In this document: piece after piece, positions 22,755 to 44,622 of the stretch | Layout of the letters: every line of letters begins with the position of its first letter | How positions within the stretch are numbered: the first letter of the stretch is position 1 | From: Ignavibacteria bacterium | GTDB taxonomy: Bacteria > Bacteroidota > Ignavibacteria > Kapaibacteriales > UBA2268 | Direction: 5' to 3' | NCBI GenBank assembly: GCA_031261605.1 | Contig: JAISJI010000068.1 | Span: 2,771-66,770 of the forward strand | DNA: 64,000 nt | The notes under the pieces: model-generated | What the model was told of the DNA's origin: nothing | Seen by the model: the letters and a program-made list of their open reading frames with translations, nothing else | Databases searched by the model: none | Translations under genes and position numbers: made by a program

Positions 22755-22997
22755 TTAGCCCAATTTCTTCTCTAAGTATTCAATGACATTGCCGACAGTT
22801 TGAACTTTCTCTTGGTCTGCTTCGTCAATAGAGATATTGAACTCTTTTTCTATTTCAAGCATTACTTCCACAGTATCGAGCGAATCTGCGCCGAGGTCTT
22901 TTGTGAAAGAAGCTTCAGGAGTAACTTGCGATTCTTCTACTCCGAGTTTGTTTACAACGATTTTGATAACGTGTTGTGTGATTTCTTTGGTATCCAT
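22755..22997 (-). CDS. acpP: Acyl carrier protein.
   Basis: 80 aa. DLGADSLDTVEVMLEIEKEF contains the phosphopantetheine-attachment Ser. Confidence 0.95.
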   Translation of the reverse strand: MDTKEITQHVIKIVVNKLGVEESQVTPEASFTKDLGADSLDTVEVMLEIEKEFNISIDEADQEKVQTVGNVIEYLEKKLG

Positions 22998-23030
22998 TTA
23001 ATTTACCTTTTGATTTATGTATGTGAAAAA

Positions 23031-23100
23031 TATATATTTATTTATGTTTATGTTTTTGGTTTTGTTATAATTGACGTTACTTCTTACCATTAAATGTAAT
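23031..23100. repeat. Copy 1 of a ~60-bp direct repeat, located just upstream of the acpP start.
   Basis: aaaaatatatatttatttatgtttatgtttttggttttgtta...cttcttaccattaaatg. Near-identical to 24340-24400 apart from small indels. Confidence 0.6.
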
Positions 23101-23473
23101 CTAAACCCAGCAACTCCAATTCGGTAATAACCGATATGTATATATGTTTGTTATTAAGAAAATCTGCAATAAATTGATTTCCATTTAGTAAATGTATCAG
23201 CGGGTTTGTATCACACAATATTCTAATTCCATTCATTCCTTATATTCTTTTGATACTGAAGTGGTTCTTCGTTCCAATTTATTTTTCCCGCAAATTTTTG
23301 CGAATTGAACTGCTTTTGCGATTCCATATTGGATAGAAGTTTATTTAGTTCTATTTTATTTGTTTCTTTGTTTATTGCAATAAGCATACTATTTCTCCAT
23401 ATAAAAAAAATTACACGATAACTATACTGTGTTTACATCAATCCTTCTTTGATGAAAATCTCCAATATTTTCC

Positions 23474-24322
23474 TCAACATAACGCTGCGATATATCCACT
23501 ATATTCATGCTTTGAATTCTCTTTATTAATTGAATCATTTATCATCTCAAAATACTCCGGCAATATCTCTATCCCTATAGTGTTGCGGTGCATTCTATTA
23601 GCAACTATATTGGTCGTCCCTGAACCCGCAAATGGGTCAAGCACCAAGTCACCTTCTTTCGTAAATAACTTAATAAACCACTCCGGTAAATCCTCTGGAA
23701 ATGCTGCACTATGATTTTTATTATTGCATTCCGTGGCTAAGTGTAATACATTAGTGGGATATGCTTTTTTTCTATCTATCCAATTGGAAATATTTTTGCC
23801 AAATCCACTACCATTCTTGGAATTATCTCGTATCTTATCTGTATCACTCAAATTCCTAAGACGGGACTTCGCCCAATCGCCCATTTCTACCATCACTTCA
23901 TCCTGATACATATTAAAATGCTTGTCTTTATTGAATTGCAACAATCGCTCCCAAGCATCCCTAAATCTATTGGGCCACTTACCCGGAAAGCAATTCTTCT
24001 TATGCCAAATAAATTCCTCTGTCCAAAACCAGCCCTGCTTACGCATCTCAAGAATTAGTTCCATTACATAAGTGCTACGTTCACCTTCAACAACCTTTTC
24101 CTTAATATTCAAAATAAAAGTCCCTGTCGGCTTTAATATCCGCAACAATTCCTTCGAAATCGGAAGAAACCATTCCACATATTTATTCGGCGAAATTCCG
24201 CCATAAGTAGATTTCCGCTGGTCCGCATACGGCGGCGACGTAATAACTAAATCCACATAATTATCCGGCATCTTACTCATCGTTTGCAGACAATCTTCAT
24301 TATATATTTCGCAAAACTCCAT
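23474..24322 (-). CDS. Beta-class DNA amino-methyltransferase (N6-adenine or N4-cytosine). Appears solitary or orphan.
   Basis: Motif IV DLVITSPPY lies N-terminal to motif I DLVLDPFAGSGTT, which is the beta-class order. 282 aa. Confidence 0.85.
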   Translation of the reverse strand: MEFCEIYNEDCLQTMSKMPDNYVDLVITSPPYADQRKSTYGGISPNKYVEWFLPISKELLRILKPTGTFILNIKEKVVEGERSTYVMELILEMRKQGWFWTEEFIWHKKNCFPGKWPNRFRDAWERLLQFNKDKHFNMYQDEVMVEMGDWAKSRLRNLSDTDKIRDNSKNGSGFGKNISNWIDRKKAYPTNVLHLATECNNKNHSAAFPEDLPEWFIKLFTKEGDLVLDPFAGSGTTNIVANRMHRNTIGIEILPEYFEMINDSINKENSKHEYSGYIAALC

Positions 24323-24339
24323 AAACTCTTTCCAACACC

Positions 24340-24400
24340 TTCAAAAAAAATATATATTTATGTTTGTTTTTGTTTTTGTTACTTCTTCCATTCAATATGC
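24340..24400. repeat. Copy 2 of the ~60-bp direct repeat. It overlaps the 3' end of the 112-aa ORF and sits ~20 nt upstream of the methyltransferase start.
   Basis: aaaaaatatatatttatgtttgtttttgtttttgtta cttcttccattcaatatg. Aligns to 23031-23100. Confidence 0.6.
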
Positions 24401-24717
24401 CCATTCATATTGTATTTTTCAAATACCTTTAGAACTTCAGCACTAAAGGTTGTTAATTCTTTATCGCCTAATTTTTTAGATAACTCATACAGATGTATGA
24501 ACATTTTCTTTCCGGATTCTGTTTGCTTGTAAACCTTTTTCTCAAATAAAGTTTTCACCAAAAAATAATCTATAAAATTATCCTGACGAAGCAATATCTG
24601 CATATCAAAAAGCATCTCCCTTTCCAGTAAATCCCTATCCGATGGACTTTCGCTGTTAATTTCTTTAGCGATATAGTCCAATTCTTCTTGCTGTTCTTTT
24701 TTACTTAATTTAATCAT
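24379..24717 (-). CDS. Hypothetical 112-aa protein, translationally coupled to the upstream 367-aa ORF.
   Basis: ATGA overlap with the 367-aa ORF at 24714-24717. Charged, probably helical. No motif recognised. Confidence 0.5.
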   Translation of the reverse strand: MIKLSKKEQQEELDYIAKEINSESPSDRDLLEREMLFDMQILLRQDNFIDYFLVKTLFEKKVYKQTESGKKMFIHLYELSKKLGDKELTTFSAEVLKVFEKYNMNGHIEWKK

Positions 24718-25817
24718 ATCTGCAATGGTATTTGTATTCTTTCTCTTTTGTGTTGAATGTCTGATTCTAAGTGTTGCAATATCCTTGAGCCAAGCGAAGT
24801 AAATATCACCCTATCGTAAAATCCACTTGTTTTTACTTTTTCGGTAAGCTCTAATTCTTCACAATGATTACAAGAAAATCTAAGAACATCAGCAACAGTT
24901 CCTTCGGTGTAATCCATTTTGAAAAAACTATTTACAAAATCAAATTCTGATTTTTTTTGAAATGCCCGCCCACGAGGAAGCCATTCCCCATCTGTTAATG
25001 CAATGAATTTCAGAAAATAATAAATATTGATTTTGCATTTCTTTTCGTAAAAATTACCATTTAATAATGACTCCAGCAATATCCTCTTCTGCTCTACGCT
25101 TAGATTTATCCGCTTCAATTTATCTGTAATTTCCACTGCATTAATATTGTCTCTGAAGCGAACGCCAAAATCCGTAAGTTGTATCGTATTACGAACTTTA
25201 TTTAGCAAATCAAAATCCTCTGCAACTCTAACAGCGACATTAAATCTTGTTTTTGTTACTCCATCGCTAAAATTAAAAGCATCGCCAAAATCCTTAATCG
25301 CTAATCTGTCAGCATTATTCTCATAGAATGGGACAAACAACCTATTCAAACCACCGAGATGCGTAAAATTCAATGATATTGGTGGAGATAGTGGAACTCC
25401 GTTATTAATCAATGCCTTTTGTATTTCAGTATCATATAGCAACCTAATTTTATCTAAATCATAATCAAACCAAAGCAAATCATTTGCATCACAGAAAGTT
25501 ACAATTTCATTAGTATAATAAACCGGTGTTTGCTTGGCGAATAAAATCCCCACTTTGTGTTGAAAACCTTTCGCCAAAATAATATTTGTATATTGATTAC
25601 TTTGCTGCAAACAATAGGACAATTTTGCTTTACTATCTATTATAGTTTCAAGTTCTGTAATCAGAAAGCCATCATTCTTTATTTTATGAGCAAAATCAAT
25701 TCTACCATAAGCGGTTGTAAATTGCTGGCATACTTTATTCGCTAAAGGTAGAGAAATGCACTCTTGTAAATAATTCCTTTCTCTTAATAGAGTCCATTCC
25801 ACAAGGTATTCATTCAT
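24714..25817 (-). CDS. Hypothetical 367-aa protein. Candidate restriction endonuclease or defence nuclease with weak PD-(D/E)xK-like spacing. Function unknown.
   Basis: A GGAGG RBS precedes the ATG. N-terminal GRIDFAH...ITELETIIDSK could be a D...E..DxK nuclease motif. One CxxC (CNHCEE). Sits in a methyltransferase neighbourhood. Confidence 0.5.
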   Translation of the reverse strand: MNEYLVEWTLLRERNYLQECISLPLANKVCQQFTTAYGRIDFAHKIKNDGFLITELETIIDSKAKLSYCLQQSNQYTNIILAKGFQHKVGILFAKQTPVYYTNEIVTFCDANDLLWFDYDLDKIRLLYDTEIQKALINNGVPLSPPISLNFTHLGGLNRLFVPFYENNADRLAIKDFGDAFNFSDGVTKTRFNVAVRVAEDFDLLNKVRNTIQLTDFGVRFRDNINAVEITDKLKRINLSVEQKRILLESLLNGNFYEKKCKINIYYFLKFIALTDGEWLPRGRAFQKKSEFDFVNSFFKMDYTEGTVADVLRFSCNHCEELELTEKVKTSGFYDRVIFTSLGSRILQHLESDIQHKRERIQIPLQI

Positions 25818-25829
25818 TACAGACCTCCA

Positions 25830-25943
25830 TTAAATCCCCACATTATACGGTGGCGACGTTACAATCAAATCAATGAACGGCGCATCAAATAAATCGCTAT
25901 TCAACGAACTATCATTTAGCAACTCTATACCTTTAAACTCCAT
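25830..25943 (-). pseudogene. N-terminal remnant of a second beta-class methyltransferase gene: 38 codons, truncated right after the SPPY motif.
   Basis: MEFKGIELLNDSSLNSDLFDAPFIDLIVTSPPYNVGI* is homologous to the N-terminus of the intact methyltransferase (MEFCEIYNEDCLQTMSKMPDNYVDLVITSPPY). It starts 8 nt after the fabG stop and is followed 1 nt after its stop by the RBS of the 367-aa ORF. Confidence 0.65.
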
Positions 25944-25951
25944 AAAACCAC

Positions 25952-26698
25952 CTACATCACCATCCCGCCATCTATATGAACCACCTGTCCCGTCAAATAA
26001 CTCGCATCTTCCGAACAAAAGAAACTAACCACATTCGCTATATCTTCCGCCTCTGCTGCCCGCTTAAGTGGTATCCCTTTCAAAAATTCCTGCTTCACTT
26101 CATCGCTCAATACATCCGTCATCGGTGTCCGAACAAAACCCGGCGCTACATAATTGCAAAGTATATTCCGACTACCAAGTTCCTTCGCTACCGACTTCGT
26201 AAAGCCGATTAATCCTGCTTTTGATGCCGAATAATTGGCTTGACCTGCGTTCCCCATAACTCCTACAACCGAACCCATATTCACAATGCGACCATAACGT
26301 TGAGACATCATATAGCGACTCACAACCTTCGTGCAAAGGAACACTCCCTTGAGATTAGTCGACAGCACAGCATCCCAATCGCTCTCATTCATCCGCATAA
26401 GCAAGTTATCACGGGTAATTCCAGCATTGTTGATTAAGAAATCAATACGCTGACTCTCGGCTATTATCGCATCCATAACGCTTTGCACCTGCTCGAAATT
26501 GGTAACATCGAGTTGCTTAACTATCGCATTCTTAGCCAATTCGGCATCTGTGATAAACACCTCTTCTGCATTTGGAATAGCATAATCAAGAGCATATACT
26601 TTCGCTCCTTCTTTGAGAAGACGTTCCACAATCGCTTTGCCGATACCACGACATCCGCCGGTTACTACGGCTATTTTATTTTCAAATCTATTACACAT
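25952..26698 (-). CDS. fabG: 3-oxoacyl-ACP reductase.
   Basis: SDR. IAVVTGGCRGIGKAI, NAG, YSASKAGLIGFTKSVAKE, and a C-terminal GQVVHIDGGM typical of FabG. Confidence 0.9.
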   Translation of the reverse strand: MCNRFENKIAVVTGGCRGIGKAIVERLLKEGAKVYALDYAIPNAEEVFITDAELAKNAIVKQLDVTNFEQVQSVMDAIIAESQRIDFLINNAGITRDNLLMRMNESDWDAVLSTNLKGVFLCTKVVSRYMMSQRYGRIVNMGSVVGVMGNAGQANYSASKAGLIGFTKSVAKELGSRNILCNYVAPGFVRTPMTDVLSDEVKQEFLKGIPLKRAAEAEDIANVVSFFCSEDASYLTGQVVHIDGGMVM

Positions 26699-26781
26699 AT
26701 CTTGAAATAATTAGAATAAACAAAAATACACCAGCAACCGGACATTACCCAAATGAATAATGCCCGACTGCCAATGTCCAA

Positions 26782-27321
26782 CTACGCCTCAGCAGGTGCT
26801 TCTGCAACTTCTGCTTCTTTGGCAGCATTTGCAGCATCCTCGGCTGCTTTTGCCTCAGCAGCGGCTTTTGCGGCTGCCTCTTCTTCTGCTCTACGTTTTG
26901 CATCTTCGGCTTCTTGTTCTTCGCGTTTCTTAGCGTCTTCGGCTTCCCGAACGCGTCTGATTTTGCGAGCAGCACGCAACTTCTTACGACGTTCCCATCG
27001 TGATGCTACTACTGATTGATGCTTCTCTAATTCCGCATTAATCTCTGCTTCTGATTTGCCTTTGAACTGCAATGCCCGGCGTAACAAAACGCCATCGTAA
27101 CTAAGCAAATTATGAACGATATCGGTCGCTTGTGCTCCGTTATTTAGCCAATAAATAGCGCGTTCGTGGTTGATTTTTATCGTGCTTTTGGTCGTATTCG
27201 GGTCATAATATCCGAGGTCTTCCAAAAATGTGCCATCTCTACGGGCTCTGCCGTCAACAGCTACGATGTCATAGACAGGGTGAAATTTCTTACCCTTACG
27301 TCTTAATCTGAGTTTTACCAT
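26782..27321 (-). CDS. rpsP: 30S ribosomal protein S16 with a long Ala/Lys/Glu-rich C-terminal extension.
   Basis: MVKLRLRRKGKKFHPVYDIVAVDGRARRDGTFLEDLGYYDP matches S16. About 90 aa of low-complexity KAAAEAEAK tail. Confidence 0.9.
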   Translation of the reverse strand: MVKLRLRRKGKKFHPVYDIVAVDGRARRDGTFLEDLGYYDPNTTKSTIKINHERAIYWLNNGAQATDIVHNLLSYDGVLLRRALQFKGKSEAEINAELEKHQSVVASRWERRKKLRAARKIRRVREAEDAKKREEQEAEDAKRRAEEEAAAKAAAEAKAAEDAANAAKEAEVAEAPAEA

Positions 27322-27487
27322 TTCTATTTCTTAATGATATAGTGGGAGGTGCTCCATTACAGAGTTACCTAAAAAATGTGAACTTCAATCTAAATACACT
27401 TATATATATTTAAATCTTACAAAGATACGAAAAAATTATCAAAACATTAACATCATACTAATTATTATACCATTTTTATTTTAAAAA

Positions 27488-29140
27488 CTACTCCCCAAAA
27501 CTATACACCGCCATATTCTCCAAATACTTGTCATCCACAACACGCACCGCTACATTATGAACACCACCTTCCGCAAAGTTATGAACCCGAACACCATTCT
27601 TGTCATACAAAACACTCGGATTAAATTTACCAACCTCCTGTGGAAACTTGTGTGCCGGTATCGGATAATTAAAATCCCAACTATAATTGATTATCACACT
27701 ATCACTCACCGCTCGAAATTCATACTTCCCATCCAACGTCTTGCTACAATCTATGCGAACTACTGGACGTTTCGCTACATCCACTATCTCGCTCACCAAC
27801 ACACGCTCTATCAATATACCATCCTCATTCTTTAACCGAGCCATCTCCTGAACCGCCTCCTTTGCAAAATCAAATGCTATGAAATAACCAACCGGTAAGC
27901 CATTCTCCTGCTTCTCCTTAAACTTCCGACCAGCGTGACATACCGAAAAAAACTTCTGTATCTCCACTCGCCCTATCTTATTCTTCCAACTCTTCACCTG
28001 TATCGGCACATCATCCTTCATCCCATCACTACCGTGGTCACCACGCTGCTTCTCATTCGGAGTGCCACCAAACTTACCTACTATCCACGTCTCAAACTCA
28101 AATGGGTCCATCGCTCGTAAGTCCTCCTCGGCGAAGTAGTGCTTCTCAATCTCGTAATTTGTAAATATTCCATTCGCTTGCAAACGCTTGTCTGTCACAT
28201 CTAACGCTGCGATGGACTGGTCTATTCCGATAAAATTCCGCTGCAAATTATTCGCCATCAACATTGTCGTCCCACCACCCATAAATGGGTCAAGCACCAC
28301 ATCTCCTTCGTTAGAGGATGCTTTGATAATCCGCTCAAGAAGTGCCAGCGGCTTCTGTGTAGGGTAACCAATCTTTTCTATAGATGTTCCTTGAACATTT
28401 TGTATATCAATCCAGTCGTTCCCGATTAATTGCCCCTTTGTCTCACTTAAATATCTTTTTATACGCAATCGTTGATGTTGAGATTTTGGAAAATATATTT
28501 TATTGTCCGCATCCCATTTTTGCATTGTTTCAAACGGACAACGCCAGCCATTTGCATTTGGCAAATACCCTTTATACTCATAGTTATATCCGCCCGGTCT
28601 TGTGTTTGTTAAATCTCCCAACGAATATTTTCCTTTACCATCCATATCATCATACTTGTAAAAATTACATGAATATTTTTCAGTAAGTTCAGAGTATATC
28701 GGATTAAAAGAAAAATTATTTGACTTAGAATAATACCAAATTGTATCTGTTAATACTGCCAATTTTTTCTTTGCATCATTGTGTGCATTGGTTCTTTTCC
28801 AAATTATATGCCCTCTAAAATTTTCATACCCAAATTCCTTATCCAAAATCATCACCCTAATATATGCATCGGCATGCCAGTCGCAATGCAAATATATAGA
28901 GCCGGTGGGCTTGAGCAAGCGATGCATTTCTTTCACTCGGTCGTAAAGCCAGTTGATATATTGGTCTATGCCACCACTCCATCTGTCCTCAAAGGAGCGT
29001 ATTTCGCCGGCATCTCCCCAAATAATTTCGTAATTACGATTAGAGAAGAATGGCGGGTCAAGGTAAATGAGAGCAATGCTTTCTGCGGGCATTTTCTTCA
29101 TTACTTCGAGGCAGTCGCCGAGTATTATTTTATTTTGCAT
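27488..29140 (-). CDS. Beta-class DNA amino-methyltransferase fused to an Mrr-cat (PD-(D/E)xK) restriction-endonuclease-like domain, with a C-terminal PKD-like beta-sandwich tail.
   Basis: Motif IV IALIYLDPPF, motif I DVVLDPFMGGGTT. Then FEFETWIVGKFGG...RGDHGSDGMKDDVPIQVKSWKNKIGRVEIQKF, which fits the Mrr-cat signature F..l....G....gDgGiDg....Q.K. The tail carries YSWDF ... GVHNVAVRVVDD. Confidence 0.75.
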   Translation of the reverse strand: MQNKIILGDCLEVMKKMPAESIALIYLDPPFFSNRNYEIIWGDAGEIRSFEDRWSGGIDQYINWLYDRVKEMHRLLKPTGSIYLHCDWHADAYIRVMILDKEFGYENFRGHIIWKRTNAHNDAKKKLAVLTDTIWYYSKSNNFSFNPIYSELTEKYSCNFYKYDDMDGKGKYSLGDLTNTRPGGYNYEYKGYLPNANGWRCPFETMQKWDADNKIYFPKSQHQRLRIKRYLSETKGQLIGNDWIDIQNVQGTSIEKIGYPTQKPLALLERIIKASSNEGDVVLDPFMGGGTTMLMANNLQRNFIGIDQSIAALDVTDKRLQANGIFTNYEIEKHYFAEEDLRAMDPFEFETWIVGKFGGTPNEKQRGDHGSDGMKDDVPIQVKSWKNKIGRVEIQKFFSVCHAGRKFKEKQENGLPVGYFIAFDFAKEAVQEMARLKNEDGILIERVLVSEIVDVAKRPVVRIDCSKTLDGKYEFRAVSDSVIINYSWDFNYPIPAHKFPQEVGKFNPSVLYDKNGVRVHNFAEGGVHNVAVRVVDDKYLENMAVYSFGE

Positions 29141-29205
29141 AATTTATTTGATGTTTTATTTTGTAAAAAAAATGTAATGGATGGCGTAGCACATAATCAA
29201 TTTAA

Positions 29206-30594
29206 TCATAGTTCAGACAAATCCCCCAGCAACCTCTCCCCTACCTCGTAGATATTACCTGCACCAAGCGTAATCACTACATCCTTCGGACGCAATATTT
29301 TGCGAAGTTCCTCCGTAAGAGCATCCCTATTGGGAACGTATGTGAAGTGCTTGTAGCCCGCTTCTACTGCGGCATCCACTATGATTTGTCCGGTAATACC
29401 CGGAAGCGGCTCCTCACGTGCCGGATAAACATCGGTTACAAAAGCCAATGCAGCATCAGCAAATGAATTAGCAAAATCCTTGTAAAACTCCTTCGTCCGC
29501 GTATATGTATGCGGCTGAAAGACAGCAATGATACGCCTGTCAGCATAGTTACGAAGTCCTTTGAGTGTCGCTTTTATTTCGCTCGGATGATGCGCATAAT
29601 CATCAATAACGATAATATCATTCACCTCTCCCTTAATCTCAAATCGGCGAAAAGCCCCGTGAAACCGCTCTATCACAGCGGCAATGAGATTGAAACTGAC
29701 ATTGAATTGACGTGCAACAAGCACTGCACCTAATGCATTCTTAATATTGAATTCACCAGGAACATTAAGCGTCATCTCGCCGAGCAGTTGCCCGTATTCA
29801 TAGACCTCGCAAGTGGAAGTGAAGTTGTGGAAGCGAATATTTTTCGCTGTGTAATCGGCTGCGTTGTCCAAGCCAAAAGTAATCACTTTCTTACGCAACA
29901 TCGGGATAACATTTTGCACACCTTCATCATCTATACCCGTAGCAATAAAGCCATAGAATGGAGTCATATTGGCGAATTGTGCGAATGTATTTTGCAAATC
30001 CGCAACATCCTTATATATATCCAAATGCTCCGCTTCAATGTTGTTAATCACGGCGATGGTAGGTAGCAGTTGTAAGAACGACCTATCGTATTCATCCGCT
30101 TCAACCAATGACCACTGGCTATGACCAAGACGAGCATTCGTTCCACCAAGGTCTTTCAGACGACCACCTACGACAACAGTCGGGTCTATACCGGCTGCAA
30201 TGAGCATTAATGCAAGCATTGACGTAGTTGTTGTCTTGCCGTGTGTGCCGGAAACAGCAATGCAATAGTTGAGACGGGAAATCTCTGCAAGCATCTCTGC
30301 TCTGCGGATTACCGGTATCTTTCGGCGATTTGCTTCAAGCACTTCCGGATTTGTATCTATATGCACAGCGCTGGAATAGACCACCACATCCGCATTTGAT
30401 GCAGCAATATTATTCGCAGAATGCCCGTAATAGATAGTCGCACCAAGCGATTCCAAGTGCTCGGTATTCTCTGAGCGAGCCATATCGGAACCGCTAATGG
30501 TAAAGTCCTTGTTAAGTAGTATCTCTGCGATACCGCTCATTCCTATTCCACCGATACCGATGAAATGTATTTTTTGTATGTTTTGAAATAGCAT
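29206..30594 (-). CDS. murC: UDP-N-acetylmuramate--L-alanine ligase.
   Basis: IHFIGIGGIGMSGIAEIL, SGTHGKTTTTSM. ~463 aa from the Met at 30594. Confidence 0.9.
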   Translation of the reverse strand: MLFQNIQKIHFIGIGGIGMSGIAEILLNKDFTISGSDMARSENTEHLESLGATIYYGHSANNIAASNADVVVYSSAVHIDTNPEVLEANRRKIPVIRRAEMLAEISRLNYCIAVSGTHGKTTTTSMLALMLIAAGIDPTVVVGGRLKDLGGTNARLGHSQWSLVEADEYDRSFLQLLPTIAVINNIEAEHLDIYKDVADLQNTFAQFANMTPFYGFIATGIDDEGVQNVIPMLRKKVITFGLDNAADYTAKNIRFHNFTSTCEVYEYGQLLGEMTLNVPGEFNIKNALGAVLVARQFNVSFNLIAAVIERFHGAFRRFEIKGEVNDIIVIDDYAHHPSEIKATLKGLRNYADRRIIAVFQPHTYTRTKEFYKDFANSFADAALAFVTDVYPAREEPLPGITGQIIVDAAVEAGYKHFTYVPNRDALTEELRKILRPKDVVITLGAGNIYEVGERLLGDLSEL

Positions 30595-30610
30595 CGTTTG
30601 TTTATTATAA

Positions 30611-30644
30611 TTTTGATACAAAAATAAATATTTTTGTATCAAAA
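30611..30644. promoter_or_regulatory. Perfect 16+16-bp inverted repeat with a 2-nt spacer (TTTTGATACAAAAATA aa TATTTTTGTATCAAAA) in the murC/sensor divergent intergenic region. Candidate operator.
   Basis: Read directly from the sequence. Lies 17 nt upstream of the murC start codon. Confidence 0.5.
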
Positions 30645-30759
30645 TCACTATTTGTATTACTTTTTCCCAATATATTATCTGCCAAATTTTGTTAATATAT
30701 AATATTTCATTAAATTATACGATAATTGATATATTACATATTTTTATTAACCTCTAAAA

Positions 30760-33054
30760 ATGTTCCGCAAGATAAAAAAAACATTCTCGCATAATTATAT
30801 CCTATCTATATTAATTGTAACAGTGATAGTTTTTGTGCTTTCTTTCTATATATTCTATCGTAATACTTACCAAATAGTTTCCGATACCTCAACTAAAAAC
30901 AGCGAAAATATTTTGAAACTCGCCAATGCACAAATCGTCACCACTCTTAGAGAAGTTGAGATTGCAATTCAAAACATCAGCACTACATTAGATGATATTA
31001 ACGTTACAGACCCCAATATACTATATAATTTGACGAAGGAAGTCGTTGCTCACAACCATTTCATATTTGGTTGCGCTATCGCATTGCAACCATATCACTT
31101 CCCCGAAAAAGGCAAATACTTCGCTCCTTATGCTTGGCACGAAGGCGTAGGTATTTCACGCAAGCAATTGGGCTCAGATGAAAATGATATTTATACGCAA
31201 AATTGGTATGCTCTTCCAAAAAAATTAAGAGGTCCCATTTGGACTGACCCATACCTAGATGTCTATGGTGCAGGTGCTAATGTGTATATGTGCACTTACT
31301 CTGTCCCATTAATGAAAAATGGAAAATTCTACGGCATCATTACTGCGGATATTTCTTTGGAGTGGCTTGCTGCTCTAGTGTCAAAACTTAACCGCGACTC
31401 CGGCTCATATACTTTTATAATAGATGACAAAGGCAGATTCTTAACGCATTTCGATAAGTCATTACATCTGCCAGCAAACTTTACAGACATCACAAGAGGA
31501 AATAAAGATTCAATCAATCTGATGCGTATCGGAAGAAAAATAACAGACAGACAGACAAGCCACGATGTCATTCGCGGTGAAAGTGGCACTTCATACATAT
31601 TCTATTCACCAATACAAAAGACAAACTGGTCTATTGCAATGATGTTCAAAGAGCCGGTAATATACGGAAAATTAGATTATGCCCGTAAAGTTTTTATCAC
31701 TATACTATCCGTAGGGCTATTCTTTATCCTGGTCGTAGGTTGGATTACCATACATAGTTTAACAAAACCATTAGGCAAATTTGCAGATGCCCTTACCGAT
31801 ATTATACTTGCCGATTTTAAACTGCCGGTTCCACTAATCTCAAAAAATAAAGAGATTAGCAAACTATCAGATGCCTTTACATACCTGCAGCAGCGACTAA
31901 TTTTCTGCACTGAAGAGTTAATGGAAATGTCTGTATCAAAAGAGAAGATGGAGGACGAACTAAAACTCGCTCGCAAGATACAGTTAGAGTTAATTTCCTC
32001 ATCTATGCCAGTATTCCCATTCGCTCTGGGTATTGATATGCACGGTATCGCTCACAATACAGAGATAAGCACCGGCTTCTACGACTACTTTATTGATGGG
32101 AAACTCCTCCATTTTATTATCGGAGATGTTAAAGGAAGCGGCGTTATCTCATCGCTTTTCGTATCCTTATTACGCCATCTTTACCATATTTATGCACTCC
32201 AATATCATTCACCTGAAACTACTGCAAATGCTATAAATACAAGCACATCCCAAACCTCAGTGATACTTGCAAATGTGCTAATCGGAACATTTCATATAGA
32301 TGAGGAAGAACTTACATATTGCAATGCCGGATTATTTCCACCTATTATTGTAAACAAAACAACTGATAGCATTGTTGCTGCTCCTTCAGATACCAATGTT
32401 CCTATCGGAACGGCTGCCAATACTCAATACCATAGCTACTCACTCAAAATTCACAACAACTCAATAGTCGTCTTACACACCAACGGCGTTATGAATTCGT
32501 ATAATGATGAGGGCAAAAAGTTCGGCGAAAAGACCTTCTTTGACCTATTGCATAGGTATAGAGCACAAAATCCACACGACTTAGCAAATACCATTCTAAA
32601 TGATATAGATAAATTTGCCGAATACCGATTAGGCAATGATAATGCCACCATCCTTATATTAAACTACCTCAAATTAGTCGAAAAGCCGATGACCCGACAT
32701 TCTATCACAATTCATAACAACGTGCAGGAGGTAATGTTGGTCAGCGAGTTGCTCAATCACATCGGCTCAGAGAGCAATCTACCCGGATACTTGATAATAC
32801 AACTAAAATTGCTCTTAGAAGAAATTATTACCAACATAATAGTAAATGGATATACCGAATTAGAACACGGCTCTATATCTATTTCATACACCTTGAACGA
32901 CAAAACTTTAAATTTCGAAATTACAGATAACGGTAGACCATTAAAAGATGTATCAACTATCATACACGAAACAATGGATGCCGTAGATTACCAGATATAT
33001 GACGATAAAAATGTTCTCACACTTATTAAAATGATGAATTTGAAGGAAGAATAG
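30760..33054 (+). CDS. Membrane sensor phosphatase: TM, Cache-like extracytoplasmic domain, TM/HAMP, PP2C (SpoIIE/RsbU-like) phosphatase, and a C-terminal RsbW-like HATPase domain.
   Basis: N-terminal TM (ILSILIVTVIVFVLSFYIF). Second TM (ITILSVGLFFILVVGWITI). PP2C block GDVKGSGVISSLFVSLLRH. C-terminal LLLEEIITNIIVNGYT...ISISYTLNDKTLNFEITDNGRPL resembles the anti-sigma-factor kinase fold. Confidence 0.7.
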   Translation: MFRKIKKTFSHNYILSILIVTVIVFVLSFYIFYRNTYQIVSDTSTKNSENILKLANAQIVTTLREVEIAIQNISTTLDDINVTDPNILYNLTKEVVAHNHFIFGCAIALQPYHFPEKGKYFAPYAWHEGVGISRKQLGSDENDIYTQNWYALPKKLRGPIWTDPYLDVYGAGANVYMCTYSVPLMKNGKFYGIITADISLEWLAALVSKLNRDSGSYTFIIDDKGRFLTHFDKSLHLPANFTDITRGNKDSINLMRIGRKITDRQTSHDVIRGESGTSYIFYSPIQKTNWSIAMMFKEPVIYGKLDYARKVFITILSVGLFFILVVGWITIHSLTKPLGKFADALTDIILADFKLPVPLISKNKEISKLSDAFTYLQQRLIFCTEELMEMSVSKEKMEDELKLARKIQLELISSSMPVFPFALGIDMHGIAHNTEISTGFYDYFIDGKLLHFIIGDVKGSGVISSLFVSLLRHLYHIYALQYHSPETTANAINTSTSQTSVILANVLIGTFHIDEEELTYCNAGLFPPIIVNKTTDSIVAAPSDTNVPIGTAANTQYHSYSLKIHNNSIVVLHTNGVMNSYNDEGKKFGEKTFFDLLHRYRAQNPHDLANTILNDIDKFAEYRLGNDNATILILNYLKLVEKPMTRHSITIHNNVQEVMLVSELLNHIGSESNLPGYLIIQLKLLLEEIITNIIVNGYTELEHGSISISYTLNDKTLNFEITDNGRPLKDVSTIIHETMDAVDYQIYDDKNVLTLIKMMNLKEE

Positions 33055-33310
33055 CACACCAAATCAATTCCTACAATAAATATAAGACAATAATTAGTCA
33101 CCGAAAAATGTCCGCAAATGGTATGGTTTTTGCACACAATTTCCATATCCACTAACCCCAAACTATCGCTACCTATGGAAATAAATTACTTAAAAGCGGG
33201 ATTTATTCTTACTATTAGTGTATGCTACATTCTGTTTAATACAAAAATCATACAAAATATTCCCAGAAAAATCAAAAAGTTATTCTAATTATTATCTAAT
33301 TCTAATTGCT

Positions 33311-33892
33311 ATGAAATACGTAAAAAAAATCAATAATATTTTTATTATCGCTACTATTATTTCTATTGTTTGCTTCGTTGGATGTCAACCAAATGTCCGC
33401 TTTTCTAACAATATTAAGCACAGCGGCGGCGATTATTCTACAGATAACACCACAGCAGCAAGCAAGACACATAACATAGACACAACTTTATACAATATTC
33501 CAGCAAAAACTATTTACCCAAAACCGACCATAAATGCCAATAGTTACAAAATTATTTCTATCGCACAGAAATGGCTCGGCACACCATATCTATATGGTGG
33601 TAACACTAAGAGTGGCGTGGATTGTAGCGGTTTTGTGAAAAATATTTACTCCGAAATTGGCATTAATCTGCCCCGAACCTCCGCTCAGCAATTCCAATTC
33701 GCTATACCGACAAAATCACCAGCAGTTGGAGACCTCGTATTCTTCAAGAAAAAAGGCAAAATTAATCACGTTGCTATATATCTCGGCAACGACCGCATCA
33801 TTCACTCATCCATTAACAAAGGCGTTATAGAGCAAACGATGACAGGAACAAATTTAGAGAAAATGCGTTGTGGGTATGGAAAGGCATATTAA
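33311..33892 (+). CDS. NlpC/P60 (C40) family cell-wall peptidase lipoprotein.
   Basis: Signal/lipobox ...ISIVCFVGC. Catalytic Cys in GVDCSGFVKNIYSEIG, then HVAIYLGNDRIIHS. Confidence 0.8.
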   Translation: MKYVKKINNIFIIATIISIVCFVGCQPNVRFSNNIKHSGGDYSTDNTTAASKTHNIDTTLYNIPAKTIYPKPTINANSYKIISIAQKWLGTPYLYGGNTKSGVDCSGFVKNIYSEIGINLPRTSAQQFQFAIPTKSPAVGDLVFFKKKGKINHVAIYLGNDRIIHSSINKGVIEQTMTGTNLEKMRCGYGKAY

Positions 33893-33988
33893 ACTATACT
33901 ATATATCAAAATAATATTAGGCGAAATAATGGTATGTCAATAAAATTTAGTATATTACTACTATTAATATGTATAAAAGTTAAAATAT

Positions 33989-35008
33989 ATGGCTAACCAA
34001 TACAACATCGGCATCGTTGGTGCTTCTGGACTCGTCGGCAGAAGAATTGTCCCCAACCTCGCTACCTCAAAAATAGAAATAGAAACCTTGCGTCTACTCG
34101 CAACCTCCAAGAGCGTAGGTCGCAAATTCAAATTCAGAGAACAATCTATTCGCCTCGAAGAACTTACCGAGACATCTTTCGAAGGGCTTGATATTGCTCT
34201 ATTCTCCGCCGGTTCACACGTCAGCGAACACTTCGTTCCGATAGCTGTCAATAGCGGGTGCGTTGTGATTGACAACGGTAGCTACTGGCGACTCGACGAA
34301 AATGTCCCATTAGTCGTGCCCGAAGTAAATCCCGATTCACTCCACCACCACAAAGGAATTATCGCAAATCCAAATTGCTCTACCATCATCCTCGCAGTGC
34401 CACTTGCACCTATCGTTCGCAAATATAAAGTAGCAAATGTAATCGTTAGCACATACCAAGCGATTAGTGGTGGCGGACAAACTTTGCTCAATAAGTTCCG
34501 CAAGCAAATGTATCCAAAGGATGGATTTGCACAAACGCCAGAGTTCAAGGATGATAAGCATCGCCTTATTGATAGCATCGTCTTCCACTCCGATTACAAC
34601 CAATTCGGACGAACGATAGAGGAAGAGAAAATGGTAAATGAAATACACAAAATCATCTCGCCAGACATAAATATCATTCCTACTTGTGTCCGTATCCCTG
34701 TAACAGTGGGACATTGCGAATCCGTTACTATCCAACTTGCAGAGCATTGCCATATTGACGACGTTCGCCAATTACTTGCAAATGCTCCCGGTGTCATTCT
34801 TACCGATGATACTACCGATAATTATCCATCGCCTCAGATGTGTCGCGGTAAGTTTGATATATTTGTCGGACGTGTTAGAGTGGAGCGTGTGAATGATGCG
34901 GATGTAATTTCTATGTGGATAGCGGGCGATAACTTGCACAAAGGTGCTGCAGCGAATGCAATTCAGATAGCGGAGTATCTTATTGATAATTCGCTACTTA
35001 AGTTTTGA
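33989..35008 (+). CDS. asd: Aspartate-semialdehyde dehydrogenase.
   Basis: IGIVGASGLVGRR, NPNCSTIILAVPLAPI (active-site Cys), QAISGGG. Confidence 0.9.
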   Translation: MANQYNIGIVGASGLVGRRIVPNLATSKIEIETLRLLATSKSVGRKFKFREQSIRLEELTETSFEGLDIALFSAGSHVSEHFVPIAVNSGCVVIDNGSYWRLDENVPLVVPEVNPDSLHHHKGIIANPNCSTIILAVPLAPIVRKYKVANVIVSTYQAISGGGQTLLNKFRKQMYPKDGFAQTPEFKDDKHRLIDSIVFHSDYNQFGRTIEEEKMVNEIHKIISPDINIIPTCVRIPVTVGHCESVTIQLAEHCHIDDVRQLLANAPGVILTDDTTDNYPSPQMCRGKFDIFVGRVRVERVNDADVISMWIAGDNLHKGAAANAIQIAEYLIDNSLLKF

Positions 35009-35116
35009 TTTTGGAATAGCCAGCCAACTAACCGACCCGAATAGGTATGAGGTGGGAAAGAGACCACACTAAATCCCTATCCGAAGGAAAGGAACTTTTA
35101 TAACAACAAATACAAT

Positions 35117-36433
35117 ATGCCAGAAGAGAACTTCACCAACACACTATACACCAACGACAACCTCTTCGTCCTAAATGGCTTAAATAGCGATTTGGTTGAT
35201 TTGATATACTTAGACCCACCATTCAATACCAAACGACTATTTTCTGCACCAATAGGTAGTAAAGCAGCCGGCTCGAGTTTCAAGGATATGTGGAATTGGC
35301 AAGATGTGAACGAAGCGTATCTTGATACTTTGGCAGAAAATTATCCGGCATTGACTGATTTCATTGCATCTACGAGTGTGGTGCATAGCAAAGCGATGGC
35401 TGCGTATCTAACATATATGGTGCAACGAATCGTCGAAATGCATCGCGTGCTAAAGGATACGGGCAGTTTATATTTGCATTGCGACCCGACTGCAAGCCAT
35501 TATTTGAAGGTGCTGTTGGATGAGGTTTTTGGTAAAAATAATTTTAGAAATGAAATTGTGTGGTGCTATAAAGAACGCGAAATATCCAAAAAATATTTTA
35601 ATAGAAAACACGATATTATTTTCTTTTACGTTAAATCAGAAAAATATTTATTTAACCCTACGAGATTGTTAGAACCATATAGCAAGGGGACGATTAAGAA
35701 ATTCAATTATACCGATGATGATGGACGCAGTTTTCAAATACGCGGCAAAGGCGGTGAATACACTGGAAAGCAAGGTCTCGATATAAAGTTAGAGCAAACA
35801 AGTCCAGATTTGGTGTATAGAGATTATTTGGATAAAAGTGGAGGAATATTGCCGCGTGATTGGTGGGAGATTCCATTCCTTAACAGAGCAGCCAAAGAAC
35901 GCACCGGCTACCCAACACAAAAACCGCTTGCTCTGTTGCAACGCATCATTAAGGCATCATCAAATGAAGGCGATATAGTTATGGACCCATTTTGTGGTTG
36001 TGCAACGGCTTGTGTTGCGGCTCAGCAACTCGGGAGGAAGTGGATTGGTATTGATGTAGAGGAGAATGCGGTTGATATTTTGATTGAGCGATTGAGTGAC
36101 GATGCTGGGATGTTCAAGGATTTTGTAGCGACAAAATTAATTCCCAAACGCACGGATTTAACTCTCGAACCACCATCGCAATCGGTAAAAGAACGCTTGT
36201 ACAAAGAACAAAATGGATGTTGCAACGGCTGTGGAAATGAATATTTAATGAAAGATATGGAAATAGACCACATCATTCCGAAAGCAAAAGGTGGTGGCGA
36301 TTACTACGAAAATTACCAGTTGTTATGTGGTAATTGCAATAGAATTAAGGGAAAAAATACAATGGAATTTTTGCGAATAAAGATACAAACGCGCAAGAAT
36401 TTACTGAAGGAAAAGATTATTTTCGGGGAATAA
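35117..36433 (+). CDS. Beta-class DNA amino-methyltransferase fused to a C-terminal HNH endonuclease domain. The AdoMet motif I is degenerate.
   Basis: Motif IV LIYLDPPF. Motif I region DIVMDPFCGCATA instead of FxGxGTT. C-terminal CCNGCGNEYLMKDMEIDHIIPKAKGGGDYYENYQLLCGNCNRIKG is an HNH motif (C..C...H...N...C..C). The core shares ~60% identity with the 27488..29140 methyltransferase (GYPTQKPLALLxRIIKASSNEGD). Confidence 0.8.
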   Translation: MPEENFTNTLYTNDNLFVLNGLNSDLVDLIYLDPPFNTKRLFSAPIGSKAAGSSFKDMWNWQDVNEAYLDTLAENYPALTDFIASTSVVHSKAMAAYLTYMVQRIVEMHRVLKDTGSLYLHCDPTASHYLKVLLDEVFGKNNFRNEIVWCYKEREISKKYFNRKHDIIFFYVKSEKYLFNPTRLLEPYSKGTIKKFNYTDDDGRSFQIRGKGGEYTGKQGLDIKLEQTSPDLVYRDYLDKSGGILPRDWWEIPFLNRAAKERTGYPTQKPLALLQRIIKASSNEGDIVMDPFCGCATACVAAQQLGRKWIGIDVEENAVDILIERLSDDAGMFKDFVATKLIPKRTDLTLEPPSQSVKERLYKEQNGCCNGCGNEYLMKDMEIDHIIPKAKGGGDYYENYQLLCGNCNRIKGKNTMEFLRIKIQTRKNLLKEKIIFGE

Positions 36434-36492
36434 TTACTATTTCCCCAACCAGACATTAATTATAAATATAATTCAAAAATAAGGAGAAATAT

Positions 36493-38549: not shown

Positions 38550-38582
38550 ATTTACATAAACACTCATAAATCAATATAAAAA

Positions 38583-39200: not shown

Positions 39201-39221
39201 CACATCCACAAAAGACAAAAA

Positions 39222-39253
39222 AAAGGCAGACCACAAAAGTCCGCCTTTTTTTA
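39222..39253. terminator. Bidirectional terminator.
   Basis: An A-run, then a ggcagac/gtccgcc stem with one mismatch, then a T7 run. Confidence 0.5.
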
Positions 39254-39274
39254 TTCTTGTGCCAGTATTACAAT

Positions 39275-44568: not shown

Positions 44569-44598
44569 TGTAATTTGTCTCTATACTATAGAATTTGT

Positions 44599-44622
44599 AG
44601 GGGTTCAAAATTTTGAACCCCT
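44599..44622. terminator. Bidirectional terminator hairpin after dnaK.
   Basis: Perfect palindrome AGGGGTTCAAAATTTTGAACCCCT, followed by a T-rich run. Confidence 0.6.

What the first reader, a model, noticed from the sequence alone, without database searches (positions are those of the whole stretch)
23474..36433. Three beta-class methyltransferases plus one remnant within 13 kb, two of them with swapped nuclease modules
A single 13-kb stretch contains a 282-aa solitary methyltransferase, a methyltransferase remnant, a methyltransferase-Mrr fusion and a methyltransferase-HNH fusion. No canonical separate restriction endonuclease or specificity subunit is identifiable. The two fusion proteins are clear paralogs with different nuclease C-termini, which is evidence for modular domain shuffling. 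The housekeeping genes interleaved between them (rpsP, murC, asd) argue against a single mobile island. They suggest repeated independent insertions into a core region.
Basis: inference. Interest (0 to 1): 0.55.

Follow-up and report, generated by a model that had tools for sequence, protein, structure and literature searches.

The report
Four separate methylase modules, two nuclease-fused

Summary
The 64-kb window holds exactly three beta-class DNA methyltransferases (MTases) and one 37-codon MTase remnant, all inside 23.4–36.4 kb.

- **Fusions:** the MTase–Mrr(–PKD) and MTase–HNH proteins are not local paralogs. They share 34% identity in the MTase domain only. Each belongs to a widespread family with a fixed architecture; the 120 best matches of each are near full length, at 51–61% and 61–80% identity, across several phyla.
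- **Module swapping:** it is real but happened at family level. Among the 150 nearest representatives of this MTase clade, C-terminal tails are HNH (89), Mrr-like, T5orf172/GIY-YIG-type, or absent.
- **Missed nuclease:** orf367 ("X") has a NucS-like PD-(D/E)XK domain plus winged helices. It lies between the remnant and the 282-aa MTase. Its homologs sit inside type II R-M operons, usually next to truncated MTases.
- **Independent insertions:** this is supported. The 282-aa MTase unit is bracketed by a significant direct repeat of about 33–60 nt. The X cassette is low-GC. An independent assembly breaks at both edges of the MTase–HNH gene.
- **Age:** both fusion genes have host-like composition, so they are not recent arrivals.

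Best reading: two single-chain Type IIC-like R-M enzymes plus a decayed, patched type II locus. Enzymatic activity is inferred, not shown.

The parts
23026..23085 (.). Direct-repeat copy B, lying between the PIN-like fragment and the acpP start
   Evidence: 33 nt with 30/33 identity to 24346-24378. The match extends to about 45-60 nt with indels. Ungapped score is 24 against a maximum of 14 in 3000 dinucleotide shuffles, and it is the best match for that sequence in the whole window.
23090..23236 (-). 48-codon N-terminal fragment of a PIN-domain toxin (weak evidence)
   Evidence: PF01850 PIN at E 0.08, profile positions 1-42 of 120. Sequence.
23223..23387 (-). 54-codon ORF overlapping the PIN fragment; possibly an antitoxin remnant
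   Evidence: Position and overlap only. No family hit.
23474..24322 (-). M282: complete beta-class DNA MTase with motif IV TSPPY, probably N4-cytosine
   Evidence: PF01555 E 3e-47. PADLOC Type II MTase models. Motif IV and motif I HMM hits. GC 0.383 and GC3 0.401.
24346..24387 (.). Direct-repeat copy A, lying between the orf112 stop and the M282 start
24379..24717 (-). orf112: small ORF whose start overlaps the stop of X (ATGA); function unknown
   Evidence: No hit in Pfam, NCBIfam or PADLOC. X homologs also have a small same-strand ORF in this position, but those ORFs are not homologous to each other.
24714..25817 (-). X (orf367): NucS-like PD-(D/E)XK nuclease domain followed by MarR-like winged-helix region(s); candidate endonuclease
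   Evidence: AlphaFold2 model with pLDDT 89. Foldseek matches NucS/EndoMS (2vld, 5gke), SfsA, MspJI and MarR-type regulators. D41, E55 and Q72 are invariant across 20 homologs. Distant members hit NucS_C at E 1e-6. GC 0.327 and GC3 0.267.
25830..25943 (-). MTase remnant: start codon plus 37 codons ending just after motif IV (TSPPYNVGI), then TAA, a GGAGG-containing spacer and the X start codon
   Evidence: This is a clean internal deletion. The MTase start signals are kept and the body of the gene is gone.
28151..29140 (-). M-Mrr, MTase module (about aa 1-330), motif IV DPPF, probably N6-adenine
27791..28123 (-). M-Mrr, Mrr-type PD-(D/E)XK nuclease module (about aa 340-450)
   Evidence: Mrr_cat above the Pfam cutoff. 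E350, D368, D372, Q381 and K383 are invariant in 16 homologs.
27491..27778 (-). M-Mrr, C-terminal PKD/Ig-like beta-sandwich (about aa 455-550)
   Evidence: Foldseek matches PKD domains 6aem, 4tn9 and 4l9d at E about 4e-4 and target-normalised TM about 0.7. Weak Pfam PKD hit at E 0.02.
35117..36121 (+). M-HNH, MTase module (aa 1-335), motif IV DPPF, probably N6-adenine
36179..36376 (+). M-HNH, zinc-finger HNH nuclease module (about aa 355-420)
   Evidence: PF01844 E 1e-11. C369, C372, D384, H385, N399, C404, C407 and N408 are invariant in 15 homologs.

Best explanation
The stretch is a conserved housekeeping backbone (fabF-acpP ... fabG-rpsP ... murC ... asd) that took up at least four restriction-modification-type modules at separate times.

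**Modules 1 and 2, the two fusions.** M-Mrr-PKD and M-HNH are each self-contained single-gene units. The N-terminal beta-class adenine MTase, with its variable recognition region, finds a DNA sequence and methylates it. The C-terminal non-specific nuclease (Mrr-type PD-(D/E)XK or HNH) cuts DNA that lacks that mark. That makes each a compact single-chain Type IIC-like R-M enzyme.

**Module 3, the X cassette.** Between fabG and acpP lies a low-GC type II cassette of MTase, X nuclease and a small ORF. Its MTase has been deleted down to 37 codons, while the expression signals in front of X were kept.

**Module 4, the M282 unit.** A unit of about 1.3 kb carrying the 282-aa cytosine-type MTase and toxin-antitoxin debris was then inserted just downstream of X, with a long target duplication. 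It may now supply the protective methylation.

**Shown:** domain content, conserved catalytic residues, solitary contexts of homologs, the repeat, composition, and the assembly breaks.
**Inferred:** methylation targets, cleavage activity, the order of events, and any link between X and M282.
For: **Architecture is fixed and widespread**
- M-Mrr: the 120 best hits are 51-61% identical. 116 of them cover 97-100% of the query; the shorter ones are mostly partial sequences on short contigs. Named hits include Ignavibacteria, Planctomycetaceae, Chloroherpetonaceae, Prevotella, Spirochaetia and Cloacimonetes.
- M-HNH: the 120 best hits are 61-80% identical, cover 95-100% of the query and show the same Pfam architecture.

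**Catalytic residues are invariant in both modules of both families**. The segment between the MTase motifs is the most variable part, as expected for a target-recognition region.

**No partner genes**
- Homologs sit alone between unrelated genes in L023, L024 and L025.
- In L028 the homolog lies beside an unrelated MvaI/BcnI-type system.
- In the window the immediate neighbours are rpsP and murC for M-Mrr, and asd and an uncharacterised ORF (36493-37308, no family hit) for M-HNH.

**The same MTase clade carries interchangeable nuclease tails**
- Of the 150 nearest 50%-identity representatives, 121 have C-terminal tails of at least 60 aa.
- 89 tails are HNH-like and 4 Mrr-like by phmmer.
- Among the 30 proteins whose tails matched neither, Pfam finds T5orf172 (9), MUG113 (7), NA-iREase1 (4) and Mrr_cat (3).

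**Independent insertion**
- The direct repeat around the M282 unit is significant: 0 of 3000 shuffles reach its score.
- X has GC3 of 0.267, against roughly 0.33-0.45 for the other ORFs of the first 54 kb.
- Logan contigs are 100% identical to window 13457-35082 and 36421-44623, so the only gap is the M-HNH gene.

**X is a nuclease found in R-M operons**.
Against: - I found no characterised member of either fusion family. Restriction activity is therefore purely inferred.
- Both fusion genes have host-like GC and GC3. They could be long-resident genes with a housekeeping or epigenetic role.
- The characterised Type IIC/IIG enzymes I know of are built differently: an N-terminal PD-(D/E)XK nuclease, a gamma-class MTase and about 1000 aa (background knowledge).
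- No close relative is available to show an empty site.
- The assembly breaks at M-HNH could come from k-mers shared with related genes of other organisms in the same sample, rather than from presence/absence variation.
- The M282 unit carries no endonuclease gene. It therefore fails one criterion of published 'R-M insertion with long target duplication' cases.
- M282 is not found next to X homologs elsewhere. The full-length MTase near X in L083 is only 26% identical to M282 and belongs to another system.
Confidence: 0.55

Rival explanations
1. The two fusions are solitary (orphan) methyltransferases with an epigenetic or regulatory role. Their C-terminal nuclease-fold domains serve only as DNA-binding or oligomerisation modules and do not restrict DNA.
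For: - Composition is host-like.
- There are no partner genes.
- Some relatives' tails hit the Pfam family named 'NACHT-associated inactive restriction endonuclease'.
- The Mrr_cat hit in the window protein is only just above threshold, at 23.2 bits against a cutoff of 21.
Against: - Every catalytic residue of the HNH module (D384-H385, N399, N408 and four zinc cysteines) and of the Mrr module (E350, D372, Q381, K383) is invariant across phyla. That is not expected for a dead nuclease.
- Three unrelated nuclease folds replace one another at the same position. This points to selection for cleavage rather than for one particular binding surface.
Confidence: 0.17
2. The fusions are selfish homing-type genes. 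The nuclease cuts chromosomes that lack the gene and are therefore unmethylated. Repair then copies the gene in, while the MTase protects the carrier. Spread of the gene is the main function and defence is incidental.
For: - HNH and GIY-YIG/T5orf172 domains are typical homing-endonuclease folds (background knowledge). They are the commonest identified tails in this MTase clade.
- M-HNH behaves as a precise gene-sized unit in the assembly graph.
- Identities of 75-80% between proteins labelled Ignavibacteria, Paludibacter and Chitinivibrionia indicate cross-phylum transfer.
- Homologs sit in single-gene contexts.
Against: - Homologs do not share a common insertion site. Their neighbours differ in every locus examined.
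- No full-length homolog was found in 50,697 phage or 72,556 plasmid records.
- Mechanistically this overlaps with the R-M reading, because R-M systems already behave selfishly.
Confidence: 0.13
3. X (orf367) is an ordinary type II restriction endonuclease, and M282 is simply its current cognate methyltransferase. Island 1 would then be a working two-gene R-M system, and the remnant is irrelevant debris.
For: - X, orf112 and M282 lie on one strand with short gaps.
- Seven X homologs have a complete MTase directly upstream, which is a classical M-then-R operon.
- The X active site is conserved.
Against: - 32 X loci have a truncated or half MTase directly upstream, against 7 with a complete one. 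X itself is full length in 82 of 87 loci.
- One X protein with only a 113-aa called MTase fragment upstream is indexed in 175 blocks of the assembly collection. It carries a Capnocytophaga label, and one of its source records is a human oral metagenome.
- X therefore evidently persists without its neighbouring MTase.
- M282 arrived separately, as shown by the flanking repeat and its different GC.
- M282 has no relative beside X elsewhere.
Confidence: 0.3

Closest known systems
Type IIC / IIG single-polypeptide restriction-modification enzymes (MmeI, BpuSI, Eco57I, the TaqII/TspGWI family)
   Same: Nuclease and methyltransferase lie in one chain. The MTase side supplies sequence recognition. 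No separate partner gene is needed.
   Different: By background knowledge and the papers listed, those enzymes are about 900-1100 aa. They have an N-terminal PD-(D/E)XK nuclease, a gamma-class MTase and a C-terminal recognition domain. Here the order is reversed: a beta-class MTase comes first and the nuclease last. The proteins are 438-550 aa, and the nuclease is HNH or Mrr-type.
Type ISP enzyme LlaGI (Mrr-family nuclease motif in a single-polypeptide R-M enzyme; PMC2790908)
   Same: An Mrr-family catalytic motif is fused in one polypeptide with a DNA methyltransferase.
   Different: LlaGI also carries a helicase-like ATPase motor and is far larger. No ATPase domain is present here.
Type III Mod subunits (EcoP15I, Mbo45V) and beta-class adenine MTases M.RsrI, M.MboIIA, CcrM
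   Same: They are the closest sequence and structural relatives of the MTase modules. They share the DPP(Y/F) motif IV and the beta motif order.
   Different: No Res helicase-nuclease gene lies nearby. The nuclease is fused directly to the MTase instead.
Winged-helix fusion endonucleases (DpnI, FcyTI, Psp4BI; PMC11037411) and the alternative DpnI/DpnII cassettes of S. pneumoniae (the cassettes from background knowledge)
   Same: X has the same layout, with an N-terminal PD-(D/E)XK domain and C-terminal winged helix. It is followed by a small unknown ORF and sits where an MTase gene has been lost.
   Different: There is no sequence similarity to any solved structure, and DpnI is absent from the top 50 Foldseek matches. 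The nuclease domain is NucS-like. Some X homologs coexist with an intact upstream MTase. Dependence on methylation is untested.
R-M gene insertion with long target duplication (Furuta, Abe and Kobayashi 2010; PMC2853133)
   Same: A short unit carrying an MTase gene is flanked by a direct repeat longer than 30 bp that is unique in the available sequence. It sits between housekeeping genes.
   Different: The inserted unit here has an MTase but no endonuclease. The repeat copies have diverged (30/33 in the core, plus indels). No empty-site genome is available.

Membership tests
Beta-class N6/N4 DNA methyltransferases (PF01555) | Pfam N6_N4_Mtase score above the gathering threshold | tested here: met
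   161.8, 162.0 and 172.7 bits against a cutoff of 26.7 for M282, M-Mrr and M-HNH. The remnant is below threshold at 12.3 bits.
Beta-class N6/N4 DNA methyltransferases (PF01555) | Motif order: catalytic motif IV (D/S)PP(Y/F) near the N-terminus, AdoMet-binding motif I (FxGxG-like) near the C-terminus | tested here: met
   In all three proteins the motif-IV HMM hits the N-terminal part and the motif-I HMM hits the C-terminal part. Motif IV reads TSPPY, DPPF and DPPF in the translations.
Beta-class N6/N4 DNA methyltransferases (PF01555) | Methylates DNA at adenine N6 or cytosine N4 in a defined sequence | not testable with these tools
   The base assignment (DPPF means adenine, SPPY means cytosine) is a rule of thumb from characterised enzymes, with known exceptions.
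Type IIC single-polypeptide R-M enzymes (functional class) | MTase and nuclease domains in one polypeptide, both with intact catalytic residues | tested here: met
Type IIC single-polypeptide R-M enzymes (functional class) | No separate cognate endonuclease or MTase gene required or adjacent | tested here: met
   Window neighbours are rpsP and murC, and asd and an uncharacterised ORF. Four homolog loci share no neighbour.
Type IIC single-polypeptide R-M enzymes (functional class) | Cleaves unmodified DNA at or near the recognition site; own methylation protects | not testable with these tools
   Needs expression and in vitro assays.
MmeI / Eco57I-type Type IIG/IIL family | N-terminal PD-(D/E)XK nuclease, gamma-class MTase, C-terminal recognition domain, about 900-1100 aa | tested here: not met
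   The MTase is beta-class and N-terminal, the nuclease is C-terminal, and the lengths are 438 and 550 aa.
Type III R-M (Mod + Res) | Adjacent Res gene encoding a helicase-nuclease subunit | tested here: not met
   No helicase-domain gene flanks either fusion.
Mrr-type nuclease domain (PF04471) | Pfam score above threshold, and the E...D...(Q/E)xK catalytic constellation | tested here: met
   23.2 bits for the full protein and 26.1 bits for the C-terminal part alone, against a cutoff of 21. E350, D372, Q381 and K383 are invariant.
HNH nuclease domain (PF01844) | Pfam score above threshold, catalytic His-Asn-Asn, and CxxC...CxxC zinc site | tested here: met
   44.9 bits against a cutoff of 21.4. 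The invariant residues are listed.
DpnI-like PD-(D/E)XK-wH modification-dependent endonucleases (considered for X) | N-terminal PD-(D/E)XK domain plus C-terminal winged helix | tested here: met
   Model and Foldseek matches.
DpnI-like PD-(D/E)XK-wH modification-dependent endonucleases (considered for X) | Detectable homology to DpnI, FcyTI or Psp4BI | tested here: not met
   The profile search of PDB sequences returned nothing at E up to 10. DpnI is not among the top 50 structural matches.
DpnI-like PD-(D/E)XK-wH modification-dependent endonucleases (considered for X) | Cleavage depends on methylated DNA | not testable with these tools
   Only indirect evidence: X persists next to inactivated MTase genes.
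R-M insertion with long target duplication (PMC2853133 criteria) | Flanking direct repeat longer than 30 bp, otherwise unique | tested here: met
   A 33-nt core with 30/33 identity, about 45-60 nt with indels. It is the best match in the window, and 0 of 3000 shuffles reach its score.
R-M insertion with long target duplication (PMC2853133 criteria) | Insert contains both R and M gene homologs | tested here: not met
   The insert holds M282, a 54-codon ORF and a PIN-like fragment only.
R-M insertion with long target duplication (PMC2853133 criteria) | A related genome shows the single-copy empty site | not testable with these tools
   No close relative is in the collections.

The most novel reading that the evidence does not exclude
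The X family (orf367) is a nuclease gene that moves into type II R-M operons and outlives them.
- It is found between unrelated MTase and endonuclease genes, namely MjaI-type systems and a second type.
- It stays intact in 82 of 87 loci.
- The MTase directly upstream is truncated in 32 loci and complete in only 7.
- The downstream endonuclease is often fragmented.

X could be a methyl-directed (type IV-like) successor that is incompatible with its neighbour's methylation. It could also be a selfish element that disables R-M systems. On this reading the window's 37-codon remnant, with its preserved start signals, is one more instance.
Probability: 0.2. Interest if true: 0.7.

Novelty: new variant of a known kind. 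Interest (0 to 1): 0.45.

Why it matters
**The fusions.** If they restrict DNA, they define a compact subclass of single-chain R-M enzymes of about 440-560 aa: a beta-class MTase followed by an interchangeable HNH, Mrr or GIY-YIG-type nuclease.
How many of these carry the fused architecture was checked only for the best 120–150.
- Full-length members are missing from sequenced phages and plasmids.
- I found no characterised member in the searched literature.
- Such small enzymes could be a source of new specificities, and of insight into how recognition and cleavage modules are recombined.

**The locus.** It also gives a clear example of how defence-type genes build up piecemeal inside a core-gene backbone and then decay.

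**The X family.** Its pattern raises a testable question about conflicts between nucleases and neighbouring methyltransferases.

None of this is shown biochemically.

Tried and rejected
**Synteny and population variation**
- *Synteny in relatives.* A MurC-based scan of 185,579 species genomes gave 19 loci at 59% identity or less. None of the other 19 window proteins tested from this region was found in any of them, so the test is uninformative.
- *Exact-protein look-ups* for M-Mrr, acpP, asd and orf271 returned only contigs of Logan sample SRR14710919, which are 100% identical to the window. They were useful only for the break points.
- *M-HNH exact look-up* found nothing on record. P0131 was also not on record.

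**Mobile-element carriers**
- Phage and plasmid collections hold only MTase-domain matches at 46% identity or less, so no carrier element could be named.

**Literature**
- Searches for characterised beta-MTase-HNH or beta-MTase-Mrr fusions found none.

**Ideas about X that were dropped**
- *X inserts at one conserved MTase motif (homing).* Rejected, because the junctions differ. They fall after motif IV in the window, at motif X in L084-type loci, inside motif I in L110 and L115, and after motif I in L029-type loci.
- *M282-like MTases travel with X.* Rejected, because the extra MTase in L083 is 26% identical and belongs to a separate system in a defence island.
- *Small ORFs downstream of X form a conserved partner family.* Rejected, because they fall into several unrelated sequence types.

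**Uninformative or failed**
- The promoter and terminator scan gave counts equal to shuffled controls.
- A Pfam scan of all 149 aligned representatives exceeded the size limit. It was replaced by tail classification.

Full report
**Gene map and check of the observation**

ORF listing and Pfam scans give this order on the minus strand:
- fabF (21399-22658)
- acpP (22755-22997)
- a 48-codon PIN-like fragment (23090-23236) and a 54-codon ORF (23223-23387)
- M282 (23474-24322)
- orf112 (24379-24717)
- orf367, called X here (24714-25817)
- a 37-codon MTase remnant (25830-25943)
- fabG (25952-26698)
- rpsP (26782-27321)
- M-Mrr (27488-29140)
- murC (29206-30648)

On the plus strand follow a dCache-SpoIIE-HATPase protein, an NlpC/P60 protein, asd (33989-35008), M-HNH (35117-36433) and two uncharacterised ORFs.

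All three full MTases score far above the PF01555 threshold. They match PADLOC Type II MTase models and NCBIfam DNA adenine MTase models. Their nearest solved structures are DNA MTases: CcrM, MboIIA, RsrI, M.BceJIV and EcoP15I Mod.

My own motif-IV and motif-I HMMs, run over every six-frame segment of the window, find exactly these three genes plus the remnant (E 1.5e-4) and nothing else in 64 kb. Motif IV is N-terminal and motif I is C-terminal in each, which is the beta order. The alternative of RNA or protein MTases is not supported.

**The two fusions are not local paralogs**

M-Mrr and M-HNH share 34% identity, and only across the MTase domain. Each belongs to its own large family.
- M-Mrr: the 120 best matches are 51-61% identical, and 116 of them cover 97-100% of the query. 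Named hits come from Ignavibacteria, Planctomycetaceae, Chloroherpetonaceae, Prevotella, Spirochaetia and Cloacimonetes.
- M-HNH: the 120 best matches are 61-80% identical and have the same Pfam architecture. Proteins labelled Ignavibacteria, Paludibacter and Chitinivibrionia reach 75-80% identity, which implies cross-phylum transfer.

NCBI labels the window's own proteins as a MAG of 'Ignavibacteria bacterium' on a 73,282-bp contig. MurC, however, is closest to Marinimicrobia.

**Anatomy of the fusions**

An alignment of 16 M-Mrr relatives shows three modules:
- the MTase, with DPPF and YPTQKP motifs;
- an Mrr-type PD-(D/E)XK module, with invariant E350, D368, D372 and Q381-V-K383;
- a C-terminal beta-sandwich of about 90 aa.

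The AlphaFold2 model (pLDDT 71, higher in the two C-terminal modules) matches Type III Mod and beta-class MTases first. Its C-terminus matches PKD domains at E about 4e-4 and target TM about 0.7.

In 15 M-HNH relatives the DPPF motif, motif I and the full zinc-finger HNH site are invariant: C369, C372, D384-H385, N399, C404, C407 and N408. The segment around residues 175-255 is variable, as expected for a recognition region.

**Context of the fusions elsewhere**

M-Mrr homologs lie alone between unrelated genes in three other genomes. One M-HNH homolog lies next to an unrelated MTase plus MvaI/BcnI-type system and lysS. No conserved partner gene exists. Neither family has a full-length member in 50,697 phage or 72,556 plasmid records; only MTase-domain matches at 46% identity or less appear.

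**Is there module swapping?**

Yes, but at family level. I searched 1.84 billion cluster representatives with the M-HNH MTase domain alone. Of the 150 best, at 41-66% identity, 121 have C-terminal tails of at least 60 aa. By phmmer, 89 tails are HNH-like and 4 Mrr-like. Pfam on the 30 proteins whose tails matched neither adds T5orf172 (9) and MUG113 (7), both related to GIY-YIG by background knowledge, plus NA-iREase1 (4) and Mrr_cat (3).

The same MTase clade therefore carries HNH tails, Mrr-type tails and tails Pfam files under T5orf172/MUG113 at the same position. This combinatorial pattern is what one sees for a recognition module paired with a cleavage module. It is the main argument that the tails are working nucleases directed by the MTase. 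I found no paper describing these fusions.

**Island 1 and the missed nuclease**

X has no Pfam, NCBIfam or PADLOC hit. It does have 123 homologs, and D41, E55 and Q72 are invariant among 20 of them.

Its AlphaFold2 model is confident, at pLDDT 89. The N-terminal 120 aa or so match the NucS/EndoMS nuclease domain, SfsA and MspJI. The C-terminal part matches MarR-type winged-helix proteins. Distant members hit NucS_C.

In 87 loci carrying an X homolog:
- 26 of 40 same-strand upstream ORFs are N6_N4 MTases;
- in one large subgroup the downstream gene is a MjaI-type restriction endonuclease, at E 1e-36.

X therefore lives inside type II R-M operons, and the statement that no endonuclease candidate exists is wrong.

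**An unexpected pattern around X**

X is full length in 82 of 87 loci. The MTase directly upstream looks complete in only 7 loci. It is reduced to one half, or cut in its second motif, in 32 loci, and no MTase motif is found directly upstream in 31. The MjaI-type gene is intact in about 8 loci and fragmented in at least 12.

The truncation points differ between lineages, so this is not site-specific homing.

In the window the MTase is a clean internal deletion. What remains is its ATG, which lies 8 nt after the fabG stop, then 37 codons ending just past TSPPYNVGI, a TAA, a 12-nt spacer containing GGAGG, and the X start codon. The expression signals in front of X were kept while the MTase body was lost.

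Whether X is a classical endonuclease now covered by another MTase, a methyl-directed enzyme incompatible with its neighbour, or a selfish invader of R-M loci cannot be settled here.

**Independent insertions**

- *M282 unit.* The 56-nt spacer upstream of M282 and the 92-nt spacer upstream of acpP share a 33-nt core with 30/33 identity. The match extends to about 45-60 nt with indels. Its score of 24 exceeds all 3000 dinucleotide shuffles (maximum 14), and it is the best match for that sequence in the window. The unit of about 1.3 kb that holds M282, the 54-codon ORF and the PIN fragment is thus bracketed by a long direct repeat, as described for mobile R-M units. It lacks an endonuclease gene, however.
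- *X cassette.* X has GC 0.327 and GC3 0.267, while M282 has 0.383 and 0.401. Two separate origins within island 1 are likely.
- *Fusion genes.* M-Mrr (GC3 0.427) and M-HNH (GC3 0.395) are indistinguishable from their neighbours, so neither is a recent arrival from a compositionally different donor.
- *Second assembly.* Logan assemblies of run SRR14710919 give two contigs that are 100% identical to window 13457-35082 and 36421-44623. The single gap is the M-HNH gene (35117-36433). This suggests a gene-sized variable or repeated unit in that sample, but reads are needed to tell which.

**What could not be tested**

No close relative exists in the collections. The best MurC match is 59% identical with no shared synteny. 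Methylation targets and cleavage are inferred from motifs and conservation only.

**Verdict**

The finding is real and moderately interesting.
- The locus is a piecemeal build-up of R-M-type modules in a core-gene backbone.
- Two of the modules belong to large, apparently uncharacterised families of compact beta-MTase-nuclease fusions with interchangeable nuclease tails.
- A fifth element, the X nuclease, changes the reading of the 'remnant' and shows an odd association with decayed MTase genes across metagenomes.

Noticed in passing
window 54800-64000: GC drops to 0.25-0.35 here, against about 0.41 for the first 54 kb. The region still holds housekeeping genes: trmD (57816-58493), a class I Trp/Tyr tRNA synthetase (58506-59501) and aspS (61077-62897), plus GT1 and GT25 glycosyltransferases. 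This is either strong GC heterogeneity within the genome or a chimeric MAG contig joined near 54.8-55.9 kb.
   Followed up: partly
L036-L115 and L029-L035 (X homolog loci); window 24714-25943: Across 87 loci the X nuclease is intact in 82. The MTase directly upstream is truncated or halved in 32, complete in 7 and absent in 31. The downstream MjaI-type endonuclease is often fragmented.
   Followed up: partly
window 35082/35083 and 36420/36421: Two contigs of Logan run SRR14710919 are 100% identical to the window and stop 35 nt before the M-HNH start codon and 12 nt before its stop. The only missing piece is this one gene. An 11-nt near-repeat, GAAGGAAAGGA / GAAGGAAAAGA, lies at 35083 and about 36401.
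   Followed up: partly
window 27491-27778 (C-terminus of M-Mrr): A PKD/Ig-like beta-sandwich ends this predicted cytoplasmic DNA enzyme and is conserved in the family. Its role is unknown; oligomerisation is one possibility.
   Followed up: partly
P0156 and P0171: Two M-HNH family proteins, 65-66% identical to the window protein, carry consecutive locus tags (FACS1894201_02660 and _02670) on one 11.9-kb Bacteroidia contig. Tandem pairs of these fusions therefore exist.
   Followed up: no
window 23090-23387: A truncated PIN-like ORF (48 codons, PIN E 0.08) overlaps a 54-codon ORF. Together they look like the debris of a VapBC-type toxin-antitoxin pair carried in with M282.
   Followed up: partly
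L083:67-6405: This locus is a dense defence islet. It holds a 568-aa protein whose sequence, by eye, looks like a GmrSD-type DUF262-HNH enzyme (not scanned), a 210-aa ORF followed by a full MTase, a half MTase, X, and a fragment resembling the start of the MjaI-type endonuclease.
   Followed up: no
H1-H24 (Streptomyces phages, gene 48): A phage 'DNA methylase' of about 430-490 aa aligns with M-HNH to residue 395 and with M-Mrr to residue 442. The alignments run past the MTase domain, so the phage protein may also carry a C-terminal extension.
   Followed up: no
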